Shown here: piece by piece, positions 3,100 through 37,055 of the stretch
Layout of the letters: every line of letters starts with the position of its first letter
Position numbering within the stretch: position 1 is the stretch's first letter
Assembly (NCBI GenBank): GCA_028534125.1
Contig: CM052817.1
Span: 17,608,001-17,672,000 of the forward strand
Origin: Lama glama
Taxonomy: Eukaryota
Direction: 5' to 3'
DNA: 64,000 nucleotides
Translations under genes and position numbers: made by a program
Notes under the pieces: model-generated
What the model was told of the DNA's origin: nothing
Databases searched by the model: none
Seen by the model: the letters and a program-made list of their open reading frames with translations, nothing else

Positions 3100-3350
3100 C
3101 ATTGCTGATGTTTTTACCACGTATTTTGTGCCATGCACTACTCTGCACAGTAATCTATTCATTGAGCATTTAGCACGTCTAATTTCTTTACTTGTCTTAT
3201 TTCAATGACCCTAAGGGGCCAGGATTCTTGCTCACTCATTTTGTAGATGAGAAAGTTCAAGCTCAGAAACCTAAAGTCATTTGCTCAGAGTCACACAATC
3301 AGTAAGTGGTGGACCTCAAACTTAAATCCAAGTCCTCCTGGCCCTGAAAG
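3100..3350 (-). mobile_element. MIR SINE
   Basis: 'cattttgtagatgagaaagttcaagctcagaaacctaaagtcatttgctcagagtcacacaatcagtaagtggtgga'. Confidence 0.75.
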
Positions 3351-3425
3351 CCTATATTCTACTGTTTCTGTATCTAGCAGAGTCACTGCTAGAACTAGAC
3401 AATGCAGGTGGAACGTGGCTTAAGC

Positions 3426-4762
3426 CTACTGAAACTCTTAGCAGCAGTACAGCTTCCAAAAAAGTTGGCAGTGATTCATTATAGGGGTCACTGAAAGGGG
3501 GAAGCAGAGGTAATAAGGGGAAACAGCAAGGTGGACACAACTGCCAGCAGGGCAGCCCTAGAGCCAGTAACTTGGCAACTGCTCCTTATACCCCGAAGGC
3601 CAGATTCATCCAATTATTCCCCAGTCTACACAAAGGAAAAATTAGGCAAAACCCGAAAATGGGGCTTTAGTTGGGATTTGGGGAACCATGGGTGGCTAGT
3701 TAATGAACATGGACAACACCTGTTTCCCCAGACGGTAGTTTTGTCAAGCCATCAGGGAGGCCCATCAAGGAACTCACTATGGGAGGGAAGCCCTATATAA
3801 TTGGCTGGTTGAGATCATGGTAACCCCTGGCATGAAGAGCACAATCAATGGGGTAGATGAGACCCGCCCCATTTGCTCAATAAATAACCCCAAGACCAGA
3901 CTCCTCCAGAGGCCCCCAGATAAGACCCATCCAGACCAGAGGAACATATCCTGGAGAAGACTGACAGACTGATTTCATGTCATCATCCTCTTAGTACCAA
4001 GCAACTCCAGTATCTCTTGGTGCTGGTAAACACATTTCCTGGGTGGACGAAAGCATTCCCCACTAGAACTAAAAAGGAAGCTGAAGTGGCTAAAGCATTA
4101 CTAAAAGAAATAATCCCCAGGTTTGGGCTCCCAGGATCCCTACAAAGTGATAATGGTCCAGCATTTGCATCTCAAATGGTGAAGCAGATAACAAGTGCTC
4201 CAGGCATAAAATAGACCTTGCCCTATTCAGCCTCGGGGAGAGCAGAGAGATCCCATCAGACCTTGAAACTGGCCTTAGCCAAGCTATGTCAGGAAACTCA
4301 AGAAAATTGGGTTAAGTTGCCTCCCATTGCCCTGCTCTGCATGCCCTTAGTCCCAAGGGATAAGTTAAAGTTTAGTGCATTCGAATTCATGTATGGTAGA
4401 CATATTCCCCAAGCCTGAGAGAAGGGACACCTTAATGTCCCTGAAATGAAACAACTCAAGTGTGCCATCCAGGTAGGAGAACCTTGGAAGCTGTCAGGGA
4501 ATGTGGTAACCAGCTGCTATCCACACCCACTGACCTGGCCCTCCACCCCTTCCGGCGAGACCTACAAACAAACCTAGAAAACCAGCAGTTCGCAAGATCA
4601 GCCCATTAAGTGAAACGGACTCCATTTGGCGATCCTAACTACCCATTCTGCCTTGAAGTTGCAGGGGATCCCTCCGTGGGCACATCGCCCTCCAGTGAAG
4701 AGACCCCCGAGCCCCAGCCAGAGACAACGGATGCCCCTAACTACTTGTGTGAACCTCTCTCC
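3426..4762 (+). pseudogene. pol: ERV pol remnant (RNase H C-terminus and integrase), disrupted by stops and frameshifts
   Basis: Translates to LLAAVQLPKKLAVIHYRGH*KG..GNSKVD (RNase H), HQGTHYG (zinc finger), PGED*QTDF, LVLVNTFPGW..AFP, IIPRFGLPGSLQSDNGPAF, SGRAERSHQTLK, FEFMYGR and LTTHSALKLQGIPPWAH (GPY/F-like region). Confidence 0.93.
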
Positions 4763-5126
4763 CTAGATTGCCAGGGAGGCTCCGTGTGCTGGCCAATACT
4801 GCTTTTATGTCAGTGCAGGTAGCTTGGATGGAGAAAGTGCAGACAGATCACTGGAAGACACAACTTAGCAGACAGAAGTCAGCCAGCCTCATCTGGCCAA
4901 ACAAATGCAGAGCGAGGTAAAACAGGCCCTCCCCAGAGGCACTTGGCTTCTACTTTTCCTGGGCCCTTTCACAACCATTGTTCTCCTACTAATACTCGGG
5001 CTGTGTGTCTTAAATTGCCTGGTGTCCTTTGCCTCCAAAAGTTTAGAATCTATAAAACTTCCAATGGTGGTCACTCAGGGCAACGAACACTCAGGGAGAA
5101 GGCCTGGGACAGCCAAACAGATCTAA
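4763..5126 (+). pseudogene. env: ERV env transmembrane-subunit remnant (SU absent)
   Basis: LD..QGG and CFYV remnants of the ISD/CX6CC region, then WLLLFLGPFTTIVLLLILGLCVLNCLVSFASKSLESIKLPM, typical of a gamma-type TM anchor and tail. Confidence 0.85.
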
Positions 5127-5248
5127 AGGCAGCTGGAAAGAAGTTCTGCTTGTCTCCCTGGGGTTAACACAATGCCCATCTCAGCAGGAAGTAGTTACGG
5201 AAGACAGACCATCGCCCCTCAGAGCCCTTCAAGAATGAGGACCAGGAT

Positions 5249-5265
5249 GAAAGGCAGAGGAGGGA
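5249..5265 (+). other. Retroviral polypurine tract
   Basis: 'gaaaggcagaggaggga' ends 2 nt before the LTR-initial TGT. Confidence 0.85.
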
Positions 5266-5267
5266 TT

Positions 5268-5775
5268 TGTCACCAGCAAAGCCCACTGGGGTCCCTGGGA
5301 AAAATAAGATGAAATTTAGGTGATAAGATAAGGTCTAACTTCTCTTTTTGTGCTTAGTCTAGTTGCACTTGCCTGTAGAGGGCTGCGTGCAGAGGCCCTG
5401 CACGGAACACAGAGGGTTAGAGCTCCCAGCTCGGAACTGCTGCGGCCACTCAACGCCGCTGCTCGCGGGCCCTGTGCGGAAGCCCTGCGCATGCGCCTCC
5501 GTTCAAGATGGCGGGGGCAGGCCGTGCGCAGAGGCGCTGTGCCCAGCGGTTAGCTCCGCCCCCTCGCTGCAGCCTAGATCGCTGCAAAGCAGCCCCGCCC
5601 ACAGCCTGCCGGGGAGATGCGTGCTCTAGAGCTTGAGCTCACACCTCTCCATTCTTTGATCAAAGAATAAAACTTTCCTTCCACTTCTGAACTCAACTCA
5701 TTCTCCTTCTATTGGTGTGAGTGACACTGGGCAGGAGGACCCTTGTTGGGGCCCAAATCGAAAGGCTCAGTAACA
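5268..5775 (+). mobile_element. ERV1 3' LTR (508 bp)
   Basis: Starts TGTCAC after the PPT and ends GTAACA (imperfect terminal inverted repeat); AATAAA at 5666-5671. Confidence 0.85.
5386..5621. promoter_or_regulatory. CpG-island-like LTR promoter core (NRF1, YY1, Sp1/KLF motifs)
   Basis: About 23 CpG in ~240 bp; TGCGCATGCGC 5486-5496, CAAGATGGCGG 5504-5514, GC boxes 5554-5563 and 5593-5601. Confidence 0.6.
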
Positions 5776-6085
5776 AGAGCTAAAGAAGACATGGCATCTT
5801 CCCTCAGAGAGTGTGAGGTCTGACACTGCATAGCTGTCGTGACTAGCATGAAACAAGACCCTGAAACAGCCAGGGAACCATCCTGTGAAATCTACGGATA
5901 AAGCCCACACTGTGGAATGCAGAAGGAGAGAAATGGGGCCCTGGTGCCTTCGTTGCTGGAGCAAACCTTACCTAATGTCATCCCAACCACCAGACTTTTT
6001 AGTTATTCTTATGACTAAACAAATATCTTCCACTATTCAAGCCAGCTGGAGTTGGATTCTCTGTTATTTACAACAGAATGCTCTG
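5776..6085 (+). mobile_element. Old MLT1 (J/K-like) LTR, 3' part
   Basis: Ends 'ttcaagccagctggagttggattctctgttatttacaacagaatgc', like MLT1J-type termini. Confidence 0.6.
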
Positions 6086-7619
6086 CTGCATCAGTCCCCT
6101 TGCTGCTCCTCTCCTTCCTTGTCCATTGCTGGAGGCCTCTTTCTCACAGGGAAAAAAGGAGGGAAGAAAAGAGGAAAGGATTTCAAAGCCAAATCCATAG
6201 ATTTGACTTCTTGGTAGCTGCCCTGGAAAGAGGTCCAACAAGGGATACTTGGAGCTGTCAGCCAGAGTAAGTTCTCAGTTATTTGGAAATGTCAGTGGTC
6301 CATCCTCTCCCTTCTCCCACAGATAATCAAGAGTTGGCTGAGAGTGCTGATCCCCACCAAGCACAGCCAAGGAAATATCACTGCTCTGGAATCTTCAGTC
6401 TTTCCAGAGGTATAAACCATCATGTTCAGAATGAGTTCTAGGGCCAAGAGCAGAGGCCACCTCATGTTAGTGACCCATCTGGAACACCTCAGGCCACCTC
6501 ACAGACACTAGGAGAGCAGCGTGTAAGCACCTCTGCTTGCTCCTCTTCCTCTGTGCCCCAAAGGACAAGATGAGTTAAGGCCTGAAGGCCAATCTCACCA
6601 ACCGATGAAAGTCAATACAAGAACTCAAGTGCACAACACAGCCCTTCCTGGTAGCAGGATTTCAGACAAAGCATGAGGCTTAGTGGCACTCCTTGAAGTG
6701 CCAGGCAAGAAGCTGGAGACAACCAGGACCACCTGAAATTGCTCTGAACCCAAGACAGGAGAGAGAGGGTGAGCCTAGGGGACAATACAGTAATAGTCCA
6801 CAAGCCAGGACATCCAACTGGCTGGGCCAGCTCAGGAGCAAATCAGGCAAGTGCCAGCACCTGAATTTCCAAAAGAAGGGAACACATCACAGCAGCAGGG
6901 TGCTGGGGAGATGGTCACTACCCAAGGGGTGTGTCCACGAGGGGTAGAGCCCCAACCCCCAGTCCCCAACTCCAACACATACTAACTGGGCTCCTCAAAG
7001 AATCTCTTAGAGATTCAGTTTCCTCATCTTGAAAATGGGAGTAACAATAATTCCTCCCTTATGAGATTGTTTTGATAAGTAAATGTGTGTTAAATGCTTA
7101 GGACAGTGCCTGGCACACAGTTGAACTCAACACACGTCAGCCCCTTGGCTACTGGGCCTAAGGGGACTGGGATCCAGTGGGGAGGCTGAGAGGGGGAAGC
7201 GGCAGCAAGCAAAACAGAAGCCTAGTGCTTGCCCCTCTCTAATCGTCCAACACTTGCACTTACGGTGTGCCAGGCTCCGAGCTAGAGACACAGAGGGGCC
7301 CAGGAGCGCTTCCAATTTAAGAGCTGTGTAATCTTGGATATGTTCCCCAACCTCTCTGTGCCTTTAGCTCCCATCTTTTTAAAAAGTGGAGATAATGATA
7401 ACTTGAATTGGCTAATATGAGTGAAAGCACTTAAAACAGTACTTGGGATAGGCCACACAAGTATTTGCTGACACTGTGCCCATGGCCCTAATCCACATTC
7501 CTCCAGGCCCTGCAGCTCTCCCCAAGCCTCTGAGCTCCCAGCTCAGACACAGGGGCCTTTTTAATTGCCCAGTTACAGCTCAGACTATGGCACCAATCAC
7601 ACATTTACAGAGGGCTTCA

Positions 7620-24795: not shown

Positions 24796-27032
24796 TGGCA
24801 AGGCCAGTGGGTTCATGATCTGCACGATGTCACTTAAGATGTCACTTAAGAGGGGCTAGAAATGGCCAGAGAGGTCAAGGGTCTTGACCAACATCCCACT
24901 GCTGATTCATTCATCCCTTTTCTTCAACTAGTCACGCGTTCAACGTCACTTACGTGACGTTTTACAGTTCTACATTTAAGGTTCTGTCTAGGGTTGGGGG
25001 ACCCAGTTCACCCAGTGATTTCAATTCTACAGAACTAACTGAGGTCAGGAATATCAAGGCAGCCAGGAAACATGAAAGAAAATCAAATTAACCTAAAGCA
25101 GCTATAACATCACTTCTTTCTTTTTCCCCTTTGGTAATTTGTTTTGCAGGCCACTCTTACGTAAAAATCAGGCCTCAGATTTCAGGACAAGCCCAGGGAA
25201 AAACAAGAAATAAAAAAAAAGATGATTTCTTATTTGCCTTTACAGATATCCTCTGTAATCAAAGCACTTCCGAACACGCCACTCCACCAAAAAAAAAAAA
25301 GCTTATGTCTGCATTTTTCCCCTCAGAGAGAATGTTGACTTTCTTCTCTTCATTTTGACACTTTCACTTCCTTTGTTGCAAGGTGAAGTGGGCACCAGAT
25401 TCGGGGTGCACAAGGCTGTCTCTTTCTGCACCCGAGCCTCCAAAAAGAACCCATATTAAGAGTTTCTCTCCAAGATGATCGGACTGCTCTACCCAGCATT
25501 GTTGAGGTGAGTGAATCCTCTAATGAATTCTCGATGTCACACTGCCCATAAAATACCTAATATGTTTTAGTTTATGATCTATGAATAAGTAAATTGCTTT
25601 TGCACTGCCACTTCAAGACGCAGTGAACTCTCTCCTCTGCCCGTTCATCTCCACCCGGGAGCGTGCTGGGCACATCGCCTTCTCTCTGAGGAGGCCTCAG
25701 GTTACTCAGCAGAAACTGAGGCGGGCTTCAAGAGATGAGCTTTCTATGCCTTTGATGAGATGCTCTCCATTTCTCACAGCCGACAGCACTGCTTCGTGGG
25801 CCCTTCCCCTTCTCCTCATGCTTCTCTTACTCTGTCCTTTCTTTCACTTACCCTCACAGGGAAACACAAGGAATGTTCTAGAATCAAAGACAACTCTATT
25901 CCTTCTAGGTATTTTAAATTTTAAATGTTTCCTTTTCAGTAAGGTCTTCCAGACGTGCATCTGTTGGTAGGTAACACGGATCAAGTTCTTAGTTTATTTG
26001 GAAGCAGGTAGCTCTCTCTTTGCACAGTGTTGGGTTCTGCTTGGGACGCCCAAGGGCCTGCAATGTCCTTGCTGTCCTCCAAATTGTAACCTAATTAAGA
26101 GACAAGGGTAGCATTCATTCATACGTATGTTCAGTACATGACTGGAGAGTGCCTACTGTATACTGGGTCTTTGGTAAGCTATCCAAGGAGTTTCCAAGCT
26201 CTGAGCTCTGGTCCCCAGGGCAGGGGTTGGGAATGAATTTATGAAAAAAAAGTCAAAAATATCCACATATATCAGAAGCATTGCCTGCATATTTATATTC
26301 TCTTCTTATCCATTCATTTATTTGACACATATTTCCTGAGTGTCATATACATGCCTGATGGAAGAGTGTCTCAGACATGTCTGCGTATTTTGTATTTATT
26401 TGCATGCAGTTATTATAGACTAAATGTGAATCCATTTAGAGATTTTACTGAATTTGTAATGTCCTTGTTGTCCTTGAGCATTTTCTCAATGAATGCCAGA
26501 GTTCATTGTCATCATGGAACTGCACAAAAAGAGTTAACATTTAGGAAATATTTCCTTATACTGGAAAATATGGGAACTTCTGCAAGAGAGGGCTGACACG
26601 GGGTGTAACAATACCAGGTGTGGGGTTTGTAGAACAGCCAAGAATCTACAGGCAAAAAACCAGAAGGCATCAATCCTGTGTCTAAGCAACACCTACCCAC
26701 GTCAGGCTATGGTCTGAAAAGGGCGTTACTCTAAATAATGCATATAAAGCCCTTCTTTTAAAATTATTTAATAACATTAAATTATTTTATATAATTAGTA
26801 TACATGACATATAGCAAACAAATAAATCCAGAACATCCATATCTTCTCCTCCCCGAACAATCCCTGTTGTTTAGCTCCATTTCTACAGTTTAAGTTTTTC
26901 TAAAGCAAAATATACTATAATTCTCTGTTCCCATGGTTCTTTACACTTTTCCAAGTGATTTCCCAGCACGTTGTTTGTTTGAACATCACCAAATCTGTGA
27001 AATGTAGACAGGACAGGAATCGTTATCCCCAT

Positions 27033-32000: not shown

Positions 32001-32913
32001 ACTTTACCCTAGGCCTCTGGCTACAGGCAATATTTTCTAATGCCCCAACTACAGAGAAAAGCATATCGGAATAGTAGACAGAATGCCTTCCGCGTGCCCA
32101 TGCTTTCTTGGCCCCAGTTTGAATCCTGGAGAAAAAATTCCCTGAAGCCGATGACAGCTGAGCTCCTCACCCAGCACTCAGATGCTCAGAGAAGGAAAAT
32201 TACACCCTGAGGTTCTGGGGACGCGGGAGCAGCGGGCGGTGCACATCAAGGCCAGAGAGTGGACCTGCTGCTGGTCCGTCTCCACCCCACGAGCCTGGAG
32301 CTGAAGTTAGAGAGGATTCCAGTTTGGGGGAGACTGTGCAGAGGAGACATGAAAAGGGAGCAGAAGGACAGACCTGTGTCAGCTCACACCCCGGGTTTCC
32401 CCCGAGCTGCAGTGAGGTCTCTGGGGCACCCCGTCCCCTTTACCCCTTCTTTGTAAAAATCACCTCCAGGAAAGTCCCGCCGTCTGACACAACAGTTGGC
32501 CTTTGAAGCCTATGAATGGTCATGCCCAGACGGGGTTTCCCTGGGCTCGGCGTCCCCATCTGAGCGCCTTGTGGCCCCATGGTGTCACGTCCACTGTCAG
32601 GCTTGCAGAGAGCAAACAGAGTGTGTTAAAGGCACATGGGACCAAGGGACACTGTTGGTGGGGCCTTCAAACATGTCTGTTAAGCAGCAGTTTATCTCAT
32701 ATCAGCCTCTTTGTGTCTTCTCTCCCCTTATTCCTCCCGTGGAGATGTCCTTCTCTCTCTGAGCATCCTCACCTTCCTTCCACCAACCTGGTCAGAGTCT
32801 CTATTTCCCCTGCCGTGGAAAAGAAAGCGATTAATTGTGGGGCCCTCACGGGGAGAGCCACAGCAGGAACTTTCAGATAAACCCCTTTATTTCAGCCTCA
32901 AGAATAGGCTGAA

Positions 32914-34540: not shown

Positions 34541-34861
34541 TTCTAGAAATAGCATAGCAGAGAGCATCTTCTTCACAGACATTTTTATCAGACCCTTGGC
34601 ACCTGTAGCCTCATGTCTAGAATCTAATATAAAATGGCGTTCGATCTGTTGCAAAGACATGTGTCTTATCATGTTTTCTGCTTTGCCATGTTCTCCAAAG
34701 AGCACTGTGTCTTCCAGAGGCCTCATCCACTGAGCTAGTTGGAGAACCACTGCCGGTGATTATAGAACAAGGACAACCTGGTCCTTTGTCGAATGAAAGA
34801 GGCTCCTACGCGAGCAAGAAGTCTCTGCGCCCCGCTCCTTAAACTCAGGCCATGGTTTACA

Positions 34862-34927
34862 AGAGAGAGACAGAGAGACAGAAAGAGAGCAAGAGAGAGA
34901 CAGAGGGGAAGAGCGAGAGAGAGAGAG
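34862..34927. repeat. Imperfect (GA)n polypurine tract
   Basis: Direct reading. Confidence 0.85.
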
Positions 34928-37055
34928 TCCCAGGGATGATTCTCAGAGAAACCACCACACGATGTAATTCCTCAGGGAAGGGGACGATGAAAGTCCTCAG
35001 AATTGTGCCGCTTGGTGTTTTTACTGAACCATTGCTTGCTGATTTAGTTAATGATAATGTTTGGTTCCAAATTTCCTCTAAAAGGGAGTCTTAAGTGTTC
35101 TCAGCTTGGACGGGGCTGGCTTAAAAATAAACAAATAAGTTATATAAGTCCAAATTTTGGAGGATCAGGTTTTGGAGGCCAAGGCTCGGTGTAGGATTAA
35201 AAGGGCCCGCCTCGCATCTTGTGGTTGGGCCTCACGTGCAGCCTGCAGGGTGGAGCAGCAAGGAAGCCTTCCAGCTGTCCCTGAATCCAGCTTCTAATTT
35301 GAGAGCCAACACCCACAGAAAACTCATGCAGGGTGCACCCCATGGCGCCTAAAAGACACTTGCATTGCTTAAAAGATAGTGAAGAGAAACAAAAAAGCCA
35401 TCGCAACCACTGGTAGATGATGGCAGACTTCTTTTTCTTTACTCTCTTCCAACCTTAGATGTTTTACAAGGCTGACTGGTGATGTTTAAGAGCTGTCATC
35501 TTCTGCTCCAGAGTTGGCCGCATTTGGGTGGGAAGTGAAGAGATTACTACATAGGGCCTTTTAAAAGTTCTTAAGGGTTCTCCAGGAATTCGGGATTCCC
35601 CAAAGTTACCATGGTGGATGGAGCCCCACTTTGGGTCCAGCTGTGGGAGTCAGTCAGGGACAGAAGAAGCCTGATGCTCTGATGAGGTCCAGAATCCTCC
35701 ATACACTCCTAGAATGGTGTGAATATGCAAAAGGTCACACAGGAGTCCATTCATTCACTTATTTGTGTCACATAGTTATTAAGAGCTGAGCAGTAGGAAG
35801 TACTGAGGATCTAAGGGTTAAGAGAGAAAACAGAATAGGCCCTGCCCTCACATTGCCTTTTCTAGGTGAGGAGATTTGATGAGTTTACAAACAGCTAGAA
35901 AATGCTACACACCCATCACGGATGGTGATATAAACCAGGGATCTAGATGGGCCAGGAGTACAACGTAAAAGTACTGGAACAGAAGTTCTAGCCGGTAACT
36001 GGCTTCCTGGAACGCAGGCCTAGTATGACTAGACCTTCAGATTTTCCAGAGCAGGAGAATGTGACTTTTCTGTAAACTATCCTGATTTTTTTTGTTTGTT
36101 TGCTAAAATTTTTTAACCATGAATACTAAACAAAACATACCTATAGACTGAAACAGGACAAGCCACTCAGGTGAACCTCTGATGCAGACTGTATTTGTTA
36201 ATATGGACACATACCTACCCTTTTGAAAAAAAGTACTTTATACCAGCCGTATGTTTACTCTGATCACATTTTTGTTTTGAAATTCTGCATTTATATATAG
36301 AAAAAAGATGGAAGTTGATACATCTTTGTTTTTCTTTTTTTGTGAAAATTTTTGCTGTGAGCATGCATTACTTCTGTAATCAGAATTTTCAACCAAATTT
36401 AAAATGTTATAAAAAGACCTAAGTGCTTTTACATTAGCACAGATAAAATATTATGAAATCATACAGAAATTTTTTTAAAGAATTAAATGAAAATAAAAAT
36501 TACTGAAAATGTTAAGAATAATAAGAAAATAAAGTATGTATATTGGACTTTTACGATGCCAGGGAAGTAGGGGCACTCACAATGGGCTTTACTGGCTCAC
36601 TGTCTTACTTATTCTTCCCAACTTCTGTGTGACAGTACTACTGCTATTCCCATGCATAGGAGAGAGGATGAGGTTCAGAGAGGTTAAGTAACTTGCCCAA
36701 GGTCACACAGCATGAGTAGCAGAGCTGGCACTCAAAACCTAGGTCATCTGTTTCCAGAGGCTGTGTGTTCTCCTAACTTTAAGTAAGAGATTCCTAGAAG
36801 CAAAGTAAATGAGAAAGGTCAGGGAGATGGTATTTGATCTTGGCCTCAAAGAACCAGAAATAGTTCAACCCCTAGATACAGGAAGGAAACAATACCACCA
36901 AAGAGGTAGAGATGATGCTAAATGTGTAAGAAGTCCTAATGAAGTGAGGTTAGTAGGCTGGAGACCATCACAGGAGTCTTAGTATTAAATGCCGGTCTAA
37001 GGAATTAGAATTTATTTACAGTCAGTGGGAGCCATTGATGTTCAGGAATAAGACG

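What the first reader, a model, noticed from the sequence alone, without database searches (positions are those of the whole stretch)
5268..5775. Old ERV LTR that keeps a CpG-island-like NRF1/YY1/GC-box promoter core: candidate exapted promoter
Seen: about 23 CpGs in 5386-5621, an NRF1-type TGCGCATGCGC (5486-5496) followed 7 bp later by a YY1 CAAGATGGCGG (5504-5514), and two GC boxes. The attached pol is CpG-poor and riddled with stops and frameshifts, so the insertion is old. Known: methylated CpGs decay in the germline, and NRF1, YY1 and Sp1 mark unmethylated TATA-less promoters. Inference: this LTR has escaped germline methylation and may drive a lineage-specific, perhaps germline or embryonic, transcript. 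It is the densest CpG cluster I see in the window. A GTGAGT donor-like site at 5717-5722 could splice such a transcript outwards.
Basis: partly seen in the sequence, partly recalled or inferred. Interest (0 to 1): 0.7.

Follow-up and report, generated by a model that had tools for sequence, protein, structure and literature searches.

The report
ERV 3' ends keep CpG islands
This CpG-rich spot is the tail-end repeat (3' LTR) of an old, broken retrovirus relic and is typical of its family: in all 22 relics with both once-identical ends, the tail end kept more CpG than the head end, which likely records tens of millions of years of one-sided germline methylation, while nothing found shows that this copy serves as a host promoter.

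Summary
In detail: 23 CpGs in 236 bp, with NRF1, YY1 and GC-box motifs where stated. The element is the 3' LTR of an old ERV1-type provirus that lost its 5' half. Youth is ruled out, since twin LTRs differ by 22% outside CpGs. The copy is not special, though: at 4.7 CpG/100 bp it sits at the median of 38 3' LTRs. The real finding is a family rule. In 22 of 22 proviruses the 3' LTR is CpG-richer than its own 5' twin (aligned sites 176:37). Only 1 of 28 5' LTRs is CpG-rich, against 30 of 38 3' and 23 of 36 solo LTRs. Twenty-seven repeat pairs from other ERVs show no such bias (67:68). The YY1 core is intact in 50 of 58 non-5' copies that keep the segment, against 6 of 20 5' copies, and is the best-conserved of 471 windows. 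Likely mechanism: the LTR is protected from methylation by default, and a silencer at the PBS/leader overrides this only locally. The perfect NRF1 site is private to this copy. No transcript start, splice joint or host exon was found. Single-copy exaptation is unsupported; the family is a natural twin experiment on CpG-island protection.

The parts
3379..3382 (+). Likely left target-site duplication (same 4 bases as follow the LTR)
   Evidence: the 4-mer before the start of proviral homology equals 5776-5779; a 4-mer match is weak on its own
3383..5267 (+). Internal remnant of an ERV1-type provirus: end of RNase H (read by eye), integrase, short env/3' UTR remnant; 5' LTR, PBS, gag, pro and RT are missing
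   Evidence: homology to paralogous interiors (67-85%) starts at about 3383-3406; CpG o/e 0.20
3739..4211 (+). Broken integrase: zinc domain (3739-3969) and core (3924-4211) in different frames
   Evidence: PF17921 E 0.0015 (below cut-off), PF00665 E 9e-9 (above cut-off)
5250..5267 (+). Polypurine tract, which marks the LTR as a 3' LTR
   Evidence: same tract precedes the 3' LTR paralogues
5268..5775 (+). 3' LTR, TG...CA, 508 bp, 24 CpG (4.7/100 bp)
5386..5621 (.). CpG-island-like core, 23 CpG, GC 0.70, o/e 0.79
5486..5496 (+). Perfect NRF1-type palindrome, private to this copy
   Evidence: 0 of 94 paralogues carry it; looser GCGCnnGCGC in 8 of 73 non-5' and 0 of 21 5' copies
5504..5514 (+). 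YY1-type site (motif identity recalled); family-wide, conserved in 3' and solo copies and eroded in 5' copies
5556..5561 (-). GC box (Sp/KLF-type, recalled)
   Evidence: a GC box is present in 47 of 52 CpG-rich paralogues (partly circular, as the box holds a CpG)
5595..5600 (-). Second GC box
5666..5671 (+). LTR polyadenylation signal AATAAA
   Evidence: present in 61 of 94 paralogues
5717..5722 (+). Donor-like GTGAGT; no evidence of use
   Evidence: 3 of 94 paralogues; no joint listed from it
5776..5779 (+). Right target-site duplication

Best explanation
This is the 3' LTR of an old, 5'-deleted ERV1-type provirus whose CpG content is average for 3' LTRs of its family, and it likely kept its CpGs because this LTR family is protected from germline methylation by default, probably through its YY1 site and GC boxes. 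Shown: CpG retention depends on position. 3' and many solo LTRs are rich, 5' LTRs are poor, within the same provirus. The YY1 core is kept in non-5' copies and eroded in 5' copies. Inferred: (1) CpG loss records germline methylation. (2) The 5' LTR is methylated by a short-range silencer at the tRNA-Arg PBS or leader, of KRAB-ZFP/TRIM28 type (mechanism from papers on other ERVs), which does not reach a 3' LTR 2.4-8.2 kb away. (3) The protected LTR behaves as a small orphan CpG island with promoter potential. Whether this copy fires, and whether the host uses it, is untested; it is most likely a bystander.
For: Twins: the 3' LTR is CpG-denser in 19 of 19 proviruses (sign test p 3.8e-6; medians 5.1 vs 1.7 per 100 bp; CG opposite TG/CA 176 vs 37). 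Three more pairs agree: 35 vs 7, 27 vs 3 and 9 vs 3 CpG. Classes at >=3.5 CpG/100 bp: 30 of 38 3', 23 of 36 solo, 1 of 28 5'. All 10 new 5' LTR pieces found through the leader alone have <=2.4. Control: 27 repeat pairs around integrase hits of other ERVs give 16:11 pairs and 67:68 sites (difference from the family p 1e-10). Age: non-CpG distance between twins is 0.217; rich-rich 0.265 vs poor-poor 0.235; both subfamilies hold rich and poor copies. YY1 core: rank 1 of 471 windows for identity in non-5' copies (0.71 vs 0.11 in 5'; medians 0.13/0.14); intact in 50 of 58 vs 6 of 20 (p 6e-6); within pairs intact only in 3' 9 times and only in 5' once. PBS: 6 of 21 5' LTRs are followed by 12-13 of 15 matches to the 3' end of this genome's tRNA-Arg(CCG). 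Host-side flank CpG is alike for 3' and 5' LTRs (0.57 vs 0.50).
Against: No methylation, ChIP or start-site data were available, so methylation is inferred from CpG decay alone. The silencer is not identified, and position cannot separate PBS-directed silencing from antisense read-through. YY1 is not strictly needed: 8 of 15 non-5' copies lacking the segment and 4 of 8 with point changes are still CpG-rich. Point changes in the YY1 core are rarer than a neutral bystander model predicts (11 of 348 sites; binomial p 4e-10 against an assumed 12% per site), which leaves room for selection at many copies. Solo-LTR CpG correlates with flank CpG (rho 0.56, n 33), so locus context may contribute. Control ERVs are younger (mean twin identity 0.92) and less CpG-rich, so they are not age-matched. 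Exact 4-bp TSDs were seen by eye for only 5 of the 19 pairs.
Confidence: 0.68

Rival explanations
1. This single copy has been exapted as a germline or embryonic promoter: it gained a private NRF1 site and splices out through the donor-like hexamer.
For: The perfect NRF1 palindrome is found in this copy and 0 of 94 paralogues. The YY1 site, both GC boxes and the CpG core are intact. The copy is among the shorter branches (15 of 95) and ranked 3rd of 40 hits for another copy's R/U5, though both results are biased by how the copies were picked. Near-identical low-depth RNA-library contigs cover pieces of 3335-5468 in run X1 (strand and start unknown, DNA carry-over not excluded).
Against: CpG density is the median of its class. 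GTGAGT is common by chance and lies downstream of the LTR's own AATAAA. No Pfam domain over cut-off other than integrase in 285 ORFs from 1-44 kb (insensitive to short exons). An NRF1-like site arises in 1.3% of shuffles of this core, so one such copy among about 50 CpG-rich copies is unsurprising.
Confidence: 0.1
2. The asymmetry is caused by the 3' LTR itself: it is a bidirectional CpG-island promoter whose antisense transcript runs back through the provirus and brings transcription-coupled methylation onto the 5' LTR.
For: Explains the 22 of 22 polarity without a PBS factor. HTLV-1 has an unmethylated 3' LTR and minus-strand transcription from it (PMC6305241, abstract and passages). In one search, near-identical contig pieces lie on the interior side of the LTR.
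Against: 5' LTRs stay CpG-poor where the 3' twin is crippled or poor: L095 (3' core deleted, 5' has 2 CpG), L080 (9 vs 10), L220/L081 (3 vs 9). Twin densities are not anti-correlated (rho +0.33, p 0.17). Contigs show no strand.
Confidence: 0.1
3. CpG-rich copies gained their CpGs by GC-biased gene conversion at recombination hotspots rather than keeping them.
For: In loose alignments 3' twins have more G/C at non-CpG differences (transversions 210:131), and 137 3' CpGs face a dinucleotide other than TG/CA. Kocher et al. name gBGC as a possible source of orphan islands (PMC11170920, passage).
Against: The bias fades with strict alignment: 112:81, 66:48 and 33:31 for 2, 3 and 4 matched flanking bases. 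176 3' CpGs face TG/CA in the twin and 50 are shared, as decay predicts. gBGC at promoter-like hotspots would itself need the unmethylated state first (established knowledge, recalled).
Confidence: 0.06
4. Host context decides: copies that landed in low-methylation regions kept their CpGs.
For: Solo-LTR CpG correlates with flank CpG (rho 0.56, p 7e-4). L020 and L005 have CpG-rich flanks.
Against: Twins share a locus yet differ in 22 of 22. Host-side flanks of 3' and 5' LTRs are alike. This copy's downstream flank is CpG-poor (0.43/100 bp). Hypomethylated islands are known to lower methylation on their shores (PMC4509998, abstract and passages), so the correlation may run outwards from the LTR.
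Confidence: 0.04
5. The family is young and all copies are equally CpG-rich.
For: None beyond the CpG count itself.
Against: Best paralogues match at 67-83% identity. CpG counts range from 2 to 37 with no young clade. Twin divergence is 0.217.
Confidence: 0.01

Closest known systems
Sperm-hypomethylated mouse IAP LTRs (Shimosuga et al. 2017, PMC5729234; abstract and passages) and Iap5-1 solo (PMC8084528; abstract and passages)
   Same: Escape from methylation goes with TF sites in the LTR and with absence of the internal sequence; internal or PBS-bound factors are proposed to methylate flanking LTRs.
   Different: In IAP the escape is rare (43 LTRs in sperm, 84% solo) and both LTRs of full elements are mostly methylated. 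Here most 3' LTRs escape while still attached to the interior, the family is tens of millions of years old, and the evidence is CpG decay rather than bisulfite data.
HTLV-1 provirus 5'/3' LTR asymmetry (PMC6305241, abstract and passages; also noted in PMC2725788, passages)
   Same: Same polarity: 5' LTR methylated, 3' LTR unmethylated.
   Different: HTLV-1 is exogenous and somatic, and the state is short-lived. Here the polarity is written into germline sequence of a fixed ERV1-type family. ERVWE1 in placenta shows the opposite polarity (PMC2725788).
CpG-dense LTRs such as human LTR12C that recruit ZF-CxxC proteins when KZFP silencing is absent (Costello et al. 2021, PMC8555987; Fukuda et al. 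2022, PMC8967385; passages)
   Same: A CpG-dense LTR that is unmethylated unless a KRAB-ZFP acts on it; copy-to-copy variation within a family.
   Different: There the KZFP site lies inside the LTR (ZNF850) and the elements are evolutionarily recent. Here identical LTRs diverge by position, which points outside the LTR. No sequence relationship to LTR12 was tested.
Orphan CpG islands (Kocher et al. 2024, PMC11170920; passages)
   Same: A small island with no annotated gene found nearby; TE insertion is named as a possible source.
   Different: That study excluded repeat-masked sequence, so LTR islands like this one were outside its scope.
Class I ERVs with a tRNA-Arg PBS (HERV-W/ERV9-like group; recalled)
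   Same: tRNA-Arg(CCG)-type PBS in several copies, 4-bp TSDs, TG...CA LTR, pol-env order.
   Different: No pol phylogeny or Dfam/Repbase comparison was run, so the family name is unknown. Several copies have other or decayed PBS types.

Membership tests
3' LTR of an ERV provirus | TG...CA ends | tested here: met
3' LTR of an ERV provirus | Polypurine tract and pol/env remnants directly upstream, host DNA downstream | tested here: met
3' LTR of an ERV provirus | Dispersed paralogues occurring as 5', 3' and solo LTRs | tested here: met
   95 near-full copies
3' LTR of an ERV provirus | Target-site duplication around the element | tested here: inconclusive
   identical 4-mer at both ends, but the 5' end is a deletion junction
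ERV1 with tRNA-Arg PBS (HERV-W/ERV9-like group) | PBS complementary to tRNA-Arg | tested here: met
   6 of 21 5' LTRs match 12-13 of 15 bases; the window copy has lost its own PBS
ERV1 with tRNA-Arg PBS (HERV-W/ERV9-like group) | RT/pol phylogeny groups with that clade | not tested
   RT is missing from this copy; no tree with reference ERVs was built
[quoted passage not shown] | >=200 bp, GC >0.5, o/e >0.6 | tested here: met
   o/e 0.85, GC 0.705; met by 32 of 38 3', 23 of 36 solo and 2 of 21 5' copies
CpG island (functional sense) | Unmethylated in germline DNA | not testable with these tools
   Inferred from CpG retention against twins
Exapted LTR promoter | Transcript starting in the LTR and spliced to host exons | tested here: inconclusive
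   contigs only, no joint from the donor among those listed, stretch limited to 3300-6280
Exapted LTR promoter | Locus-specific constraint beyond paralogues | tested here: not met
   median CpG density; branch rank 15 of 95 despite a bias towards short (paralogue comparison only, no orthologue test)
Exapted LTR promoter | Host gene within reach | tested here: inconclusive
   no host domain over cut-off in 285 ORFs >=55 aa (1-44 kb); short exons and lncRNAs would be missed; 44-64 kb not scanned
IAP-type solo-LTR escape | Escape largely confined to solo LTRs | tested here: not met
   3' LTRs of two-LTR proviruses are as CpG-rich as solos (p 0.36)

The most novel reading that the evidence does not exclude
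An ancient ERV family seeded this genome with dozens to hundreds of YY1-dependent CpG-island promoters. Every copy freed from the PBS/leader stayed unmethylated in the germline for about 40-60 million years, and the YY1 core has been held by purifying selection at many loci at once. Core bases changed at 11 of 348 sites, the degenerate base at 8 of 58, and 5' twins at 22 of 120. This would be a dispersed, family-wide exaptation of which this locus is one member.
Probability: 0.25. Interest if true: 0.8.

Novelty: new variant of a known kind. Interest (0 to 1): 0.52.

Why it matters
The two LTRs of a provirus are identical at insertion, so each pair is a same-locus, same-age, same-sequence control. 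A 22-of-22 polarity turns this family into a ready-made test of what creates and protects a CpG island in the germline. It also tests how far PBS/leader silencing reaches, and whether YY1 protects rather than silences an ERV. It warns that a CpG-rich old LTR is not by itself evidence of exaptation, and that LTR-pair dating can be skewed by one-sided CpG decay. For this single locus the result is ordinary.

Tried and rejected
RNA: 24 runs listed; the five on record as RNA that hold part of the stretch hold only 0.18-0.21 of its words. Four runs (X1, X4, X6, X7; contigs only) were laid on 3300-6280. Most records are paralogues (90-95% alike). None of the four covers 5800-6199, and no joint from 5717 is among the 15 shown of 31. 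Contigs give no start, strand or level and a hole proves nothing, so transcription is undecided; splicing to anything beyond 6280 was not examined. First control set: the query lay too far from the LTR and hit unrelated repeats; none of 37 stretches held a family LTR or a true LTR pair, so the set was dropped. gBGC: the loose-alignment signal vanished under strict alignment. Faster evolution of CpG-rich copies: branch 0.129 vs 0.113, p 0.19, not shown. A resemblance of window 3396-3411 to a PBS was rejected, as it aligns to RNase H in paralogues. Alignment-free 7-mer scan: a YY1 7-mer ranked first of 259 (p 0.006, not significant after correction). Pfam hits below cut-off at 25165, 26237, 34202 and 41623 were treated as chance. 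Literature: ten searches showed no paper reporting 5'/3' CpG-decay asymmetry in an old ERV family. The tool cannot match the prime sign, most subscription papers are absent, Molaro et al. 2011 was not held and no supplements were read, so absence from print is not established. PMC1950553 and PMC5490807 (passages) had nothing on the point. Earlier findings: nothing near the locus, by words or by sequence.

Full report
Verdict. The CpG-rich LTR is real and probably germline-unmethylated, but it is an average member of a family in which CpG retention depends on whether an LTR is the 5' or the 3' copy. The family rule is the interesting result; exaptation of this single copy is unsupported.

Observation. 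It meets the usual island criteria (best 200 bp: o/e 0.85, GC 0.705). In CpG-preserving shuffles of the core, an NRF1-like site arises in 1.3% and a YY1 site in 0.4%. The motif names are recalled from consensus patterns, not from a call.

Anatomy. The LTR (5268-5775) follows a purine tract, so it is a 3' LTR. Upstream, 3383-5267 aligns at 67-85% to the interiors of paralogous proviruses. It holds a broken integrase whose two domains lie in different frames. Homology begins inside RNase H (read by eye); no 5' LTR is found in the window (best local score 34) or in 20 kb upstream of the window. The 4-mer before the junction equals the 4-mer after the LTR, which suggests a deletion from the old 5' edge. 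Six of 21 paralogous 5' LTRs are followed by a PBS matching this genome's tRNA-Arg(CCG) at 12-13 of 15 bases.

Age. A search with the LTR scored 40 of 379 candidates; the other copies match at 67-83% over their best stretches. Among 24 distinct full-length copies, CpG counts ran from 2 to 37. Non-CpG distances were 0.265 rich-rich, 0.235 poor-poor and 0.251 between classes, and both subfamilies held rich and poor copies. There is no young CpG-rich clade. Twin LTRs differ at 21.7% of non-CpG sites. That gives roughly 43-64 million years at recalled rates of 3-2e-9 per year, probably inflated by alignment error.

Twin test. I fetched 40 proviral stretches and found 19 with two usable LTRs. Left out were stretches with no partner, three with 5' fragments of 174 bp or less, one whose 3' core is deleted and one with three LTRs. 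The 3' LTR was CpG-denser in 19 of 19 (p 3.8e-6; medians 5.1 vs 1.7 per 100 bp). CG faced TG/CA 176 times in the 3' copy and 37 times in the 5' copy. Three more pairs, matched by coordinates, agree, giving 22 of 22. Exact 4-bp TSDs were seen by eye for 5 of the 19 pairs; the others were imperfect or unclear. Most 3' LTRs were found with a query that excludes the CpG core and extra 5' LTRs with the leader alone, so the contrast is not made by the query.

Classes. From 209 hits, 120 were distinct and 95 near-full; six were reclassified by hand from pair or flank evidence. Seven more 5' LTRs were added from 11 new loci, four being too short or lacking an LTR. At >=3.5 CpG/100 bp: 30 of 38 3', 23 of 36 solo and 1 of 28 5' copies. 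Solo and 3' do not differ (p 0.36). The window copy, at 4.7, has 19 of 37 other 3' LTRs above it.

Control. Forty stretches around integrase hits of other ERVs gave 27 direct-repeat pairs, none of this family. 3' was richer in 16 and 5' in 11, with sites 67:68; without three doubtful pairs, 15:9 and 54:58. These families are younger (mean identity 0.92) and less CpG-rich, so the control shows only that the polarity is not universal.

Motifs. The perfect NRF1 palindrome occurs in 0 of 94 paralogues, so it is private to this copy. The YY1 site is family-wide. Its six non-CpG core bases form the best-conserved of 471 same-shaped windows in non-5' copies (pair identity 0.71 against 0.11 in 5' copies; medians 0.13 and 0.14). 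Among copies that keep the segment it is intact in 50 of 58 non-5' and 6 of 20 5' copies. Core bases changed at 11 of 348 sites and the degenerate base at 8 of 58 (p 0.002); a stricter threshold gives 50 of 55 against 6 of 16. Against a simple reading, the segment is absent about as often in both groups (15 of 73 vs 8 of 28, p 0.43), and about half of the copies without an intact site are still CpG-rich. A per-column identity average did not separate the groups (0.86 vs 0.85), because each 5' copy is hit at a different base and a few 3' copies are misaligned. YY1 therefore looks like one of several protective inputs, and its base-specific conservation is more than survival of unmethylated copies explains. 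Selection and mutational protection at bound bases cannot be separated here. Germline TF sites are known to attract indels (PMC8559717, abstract and passages), which could mask selection against deletions.

Mechanism. Shown: position-dependent CpG retention and YY1-core conservation. Inferred: CpG loss records germline methylation; the LTR is protected by default; and a short-range silencer at the PBS or leader overrides this for the adjacent 5' LTR only, since 3' twins 2.4-8.2 kb away stay rich. This follows the models of PMC5729234, PMC8084528 and PMC8555987 (passages read). Antisense read-through from the 3' LTR is the main rival. Against it, 5' LTRs remain poor where the 3' twin is crippled or poor (three cases), and twin densities are not anti-correlated.

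Is this copy used? Nothing shows it. Its branch is 15th shortest of 95 with ascertainment in its favour. The donor-like hexamer lies past the LTR's polyA signal, is in 3 of 94 paralogues and is common by chance. No host domain passed cut-off in 285 of 418 ORFs of 55 aa or more; those beyond 44 kb and three others were not scanned. RNA-library contigs give low-depth, near-identical pieces over 3335-5468 but no start or strand. One such contig, with 4 differences in 147 bases, bridges the 5' junction, so the truncated element probably also exists in a genome about 3% away.

Comparison and novelty. The element works like the TF-protected IAP and LTR12C copies and shows the polarity known from somatic HTLV-1. 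It differs from IAP in that 3' LTRs of two-LTR proviruses escape as a rule. My ten searches found no report of this polarity as a long-term germline record, with the limits given under Tried and rejected. I rate it a new variant of a known kind: low interest for the locus, moderate for the family.

Noticed in passing
L172:1001-1750 (G000:C11, 3' LTR of L063): This 3' LTR runs into a very dense island (26 and 36 CpG in consecutive 250-bp bins; 69 CpG in 705 bp), the most extreme family member seen and a better exaptation candidate than the window copy.
   Followed up: partly
L020:251-1000 and L005:1001-2750: L020 is a CpG-poor 3' LTR lying next to a separate CpG island (62 CpG in 1 kb); L005 is a CpG-rich solo LTR with CpG-rich flanks on both sides.
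   Followed up: partly
window 5635-5690 (paralogous contigs in runs X1, X4, X6): Contigs of other family copies in RNA-type libraries pile up on the R region at higher depth (up to 90), and one loose end finishes in a run of A just past the polyA signal, hinting that some copies are transcribed and use the LTR polyA site.
   Followed up: no
solo LTRs: Six of the nine solos with a perfect 4-bp TSD are CpG-poor, while most CpG-rich solos have imperfect TSDs; this may reflect faster change near open copies or boundary error.
   Followed up: no
LTR segment homologous to window 5478-5520: The YY1-bearing segment is deleted independently in one twin or the other in at least eight pairs, some with similar end points, which suggests a deletion-prone repeat structure.
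   Followed up: partly
L009 (G000:C14:41496661-41498262): Two family LTRs lie about 0.9 kb apart in opposite orientation, one CpG-poor (7) and one CpG-rich (22).
   Followed up: no
L120: A tRNA-derived SINE has inserted directly behind the YY1 site of a solo LTR.
   Followed up: no
G000 contigs C262381, C109063, C87954, C96842, C95731, C104619, C11148: Hits come as mirror-image identical pairs within one contig, which suggests palindromic assembly artefacts or recent inverted duplications; duplicates were counted once.
   Followed up: no
window 32001-32750 and 34751-35250: The next CpG-richest bins (13-15 per 500 bp, o/e up to 0.54) are well below island level.
   Followed up: no
window 5333-5341: A second U3 window is much better conserved in non-5' than in 5' copies (0.55 vs 0.05, rank 2 by difference), but most 3' copies were found with a query covering it, so this may be ascertainment.
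   Followed up: partly
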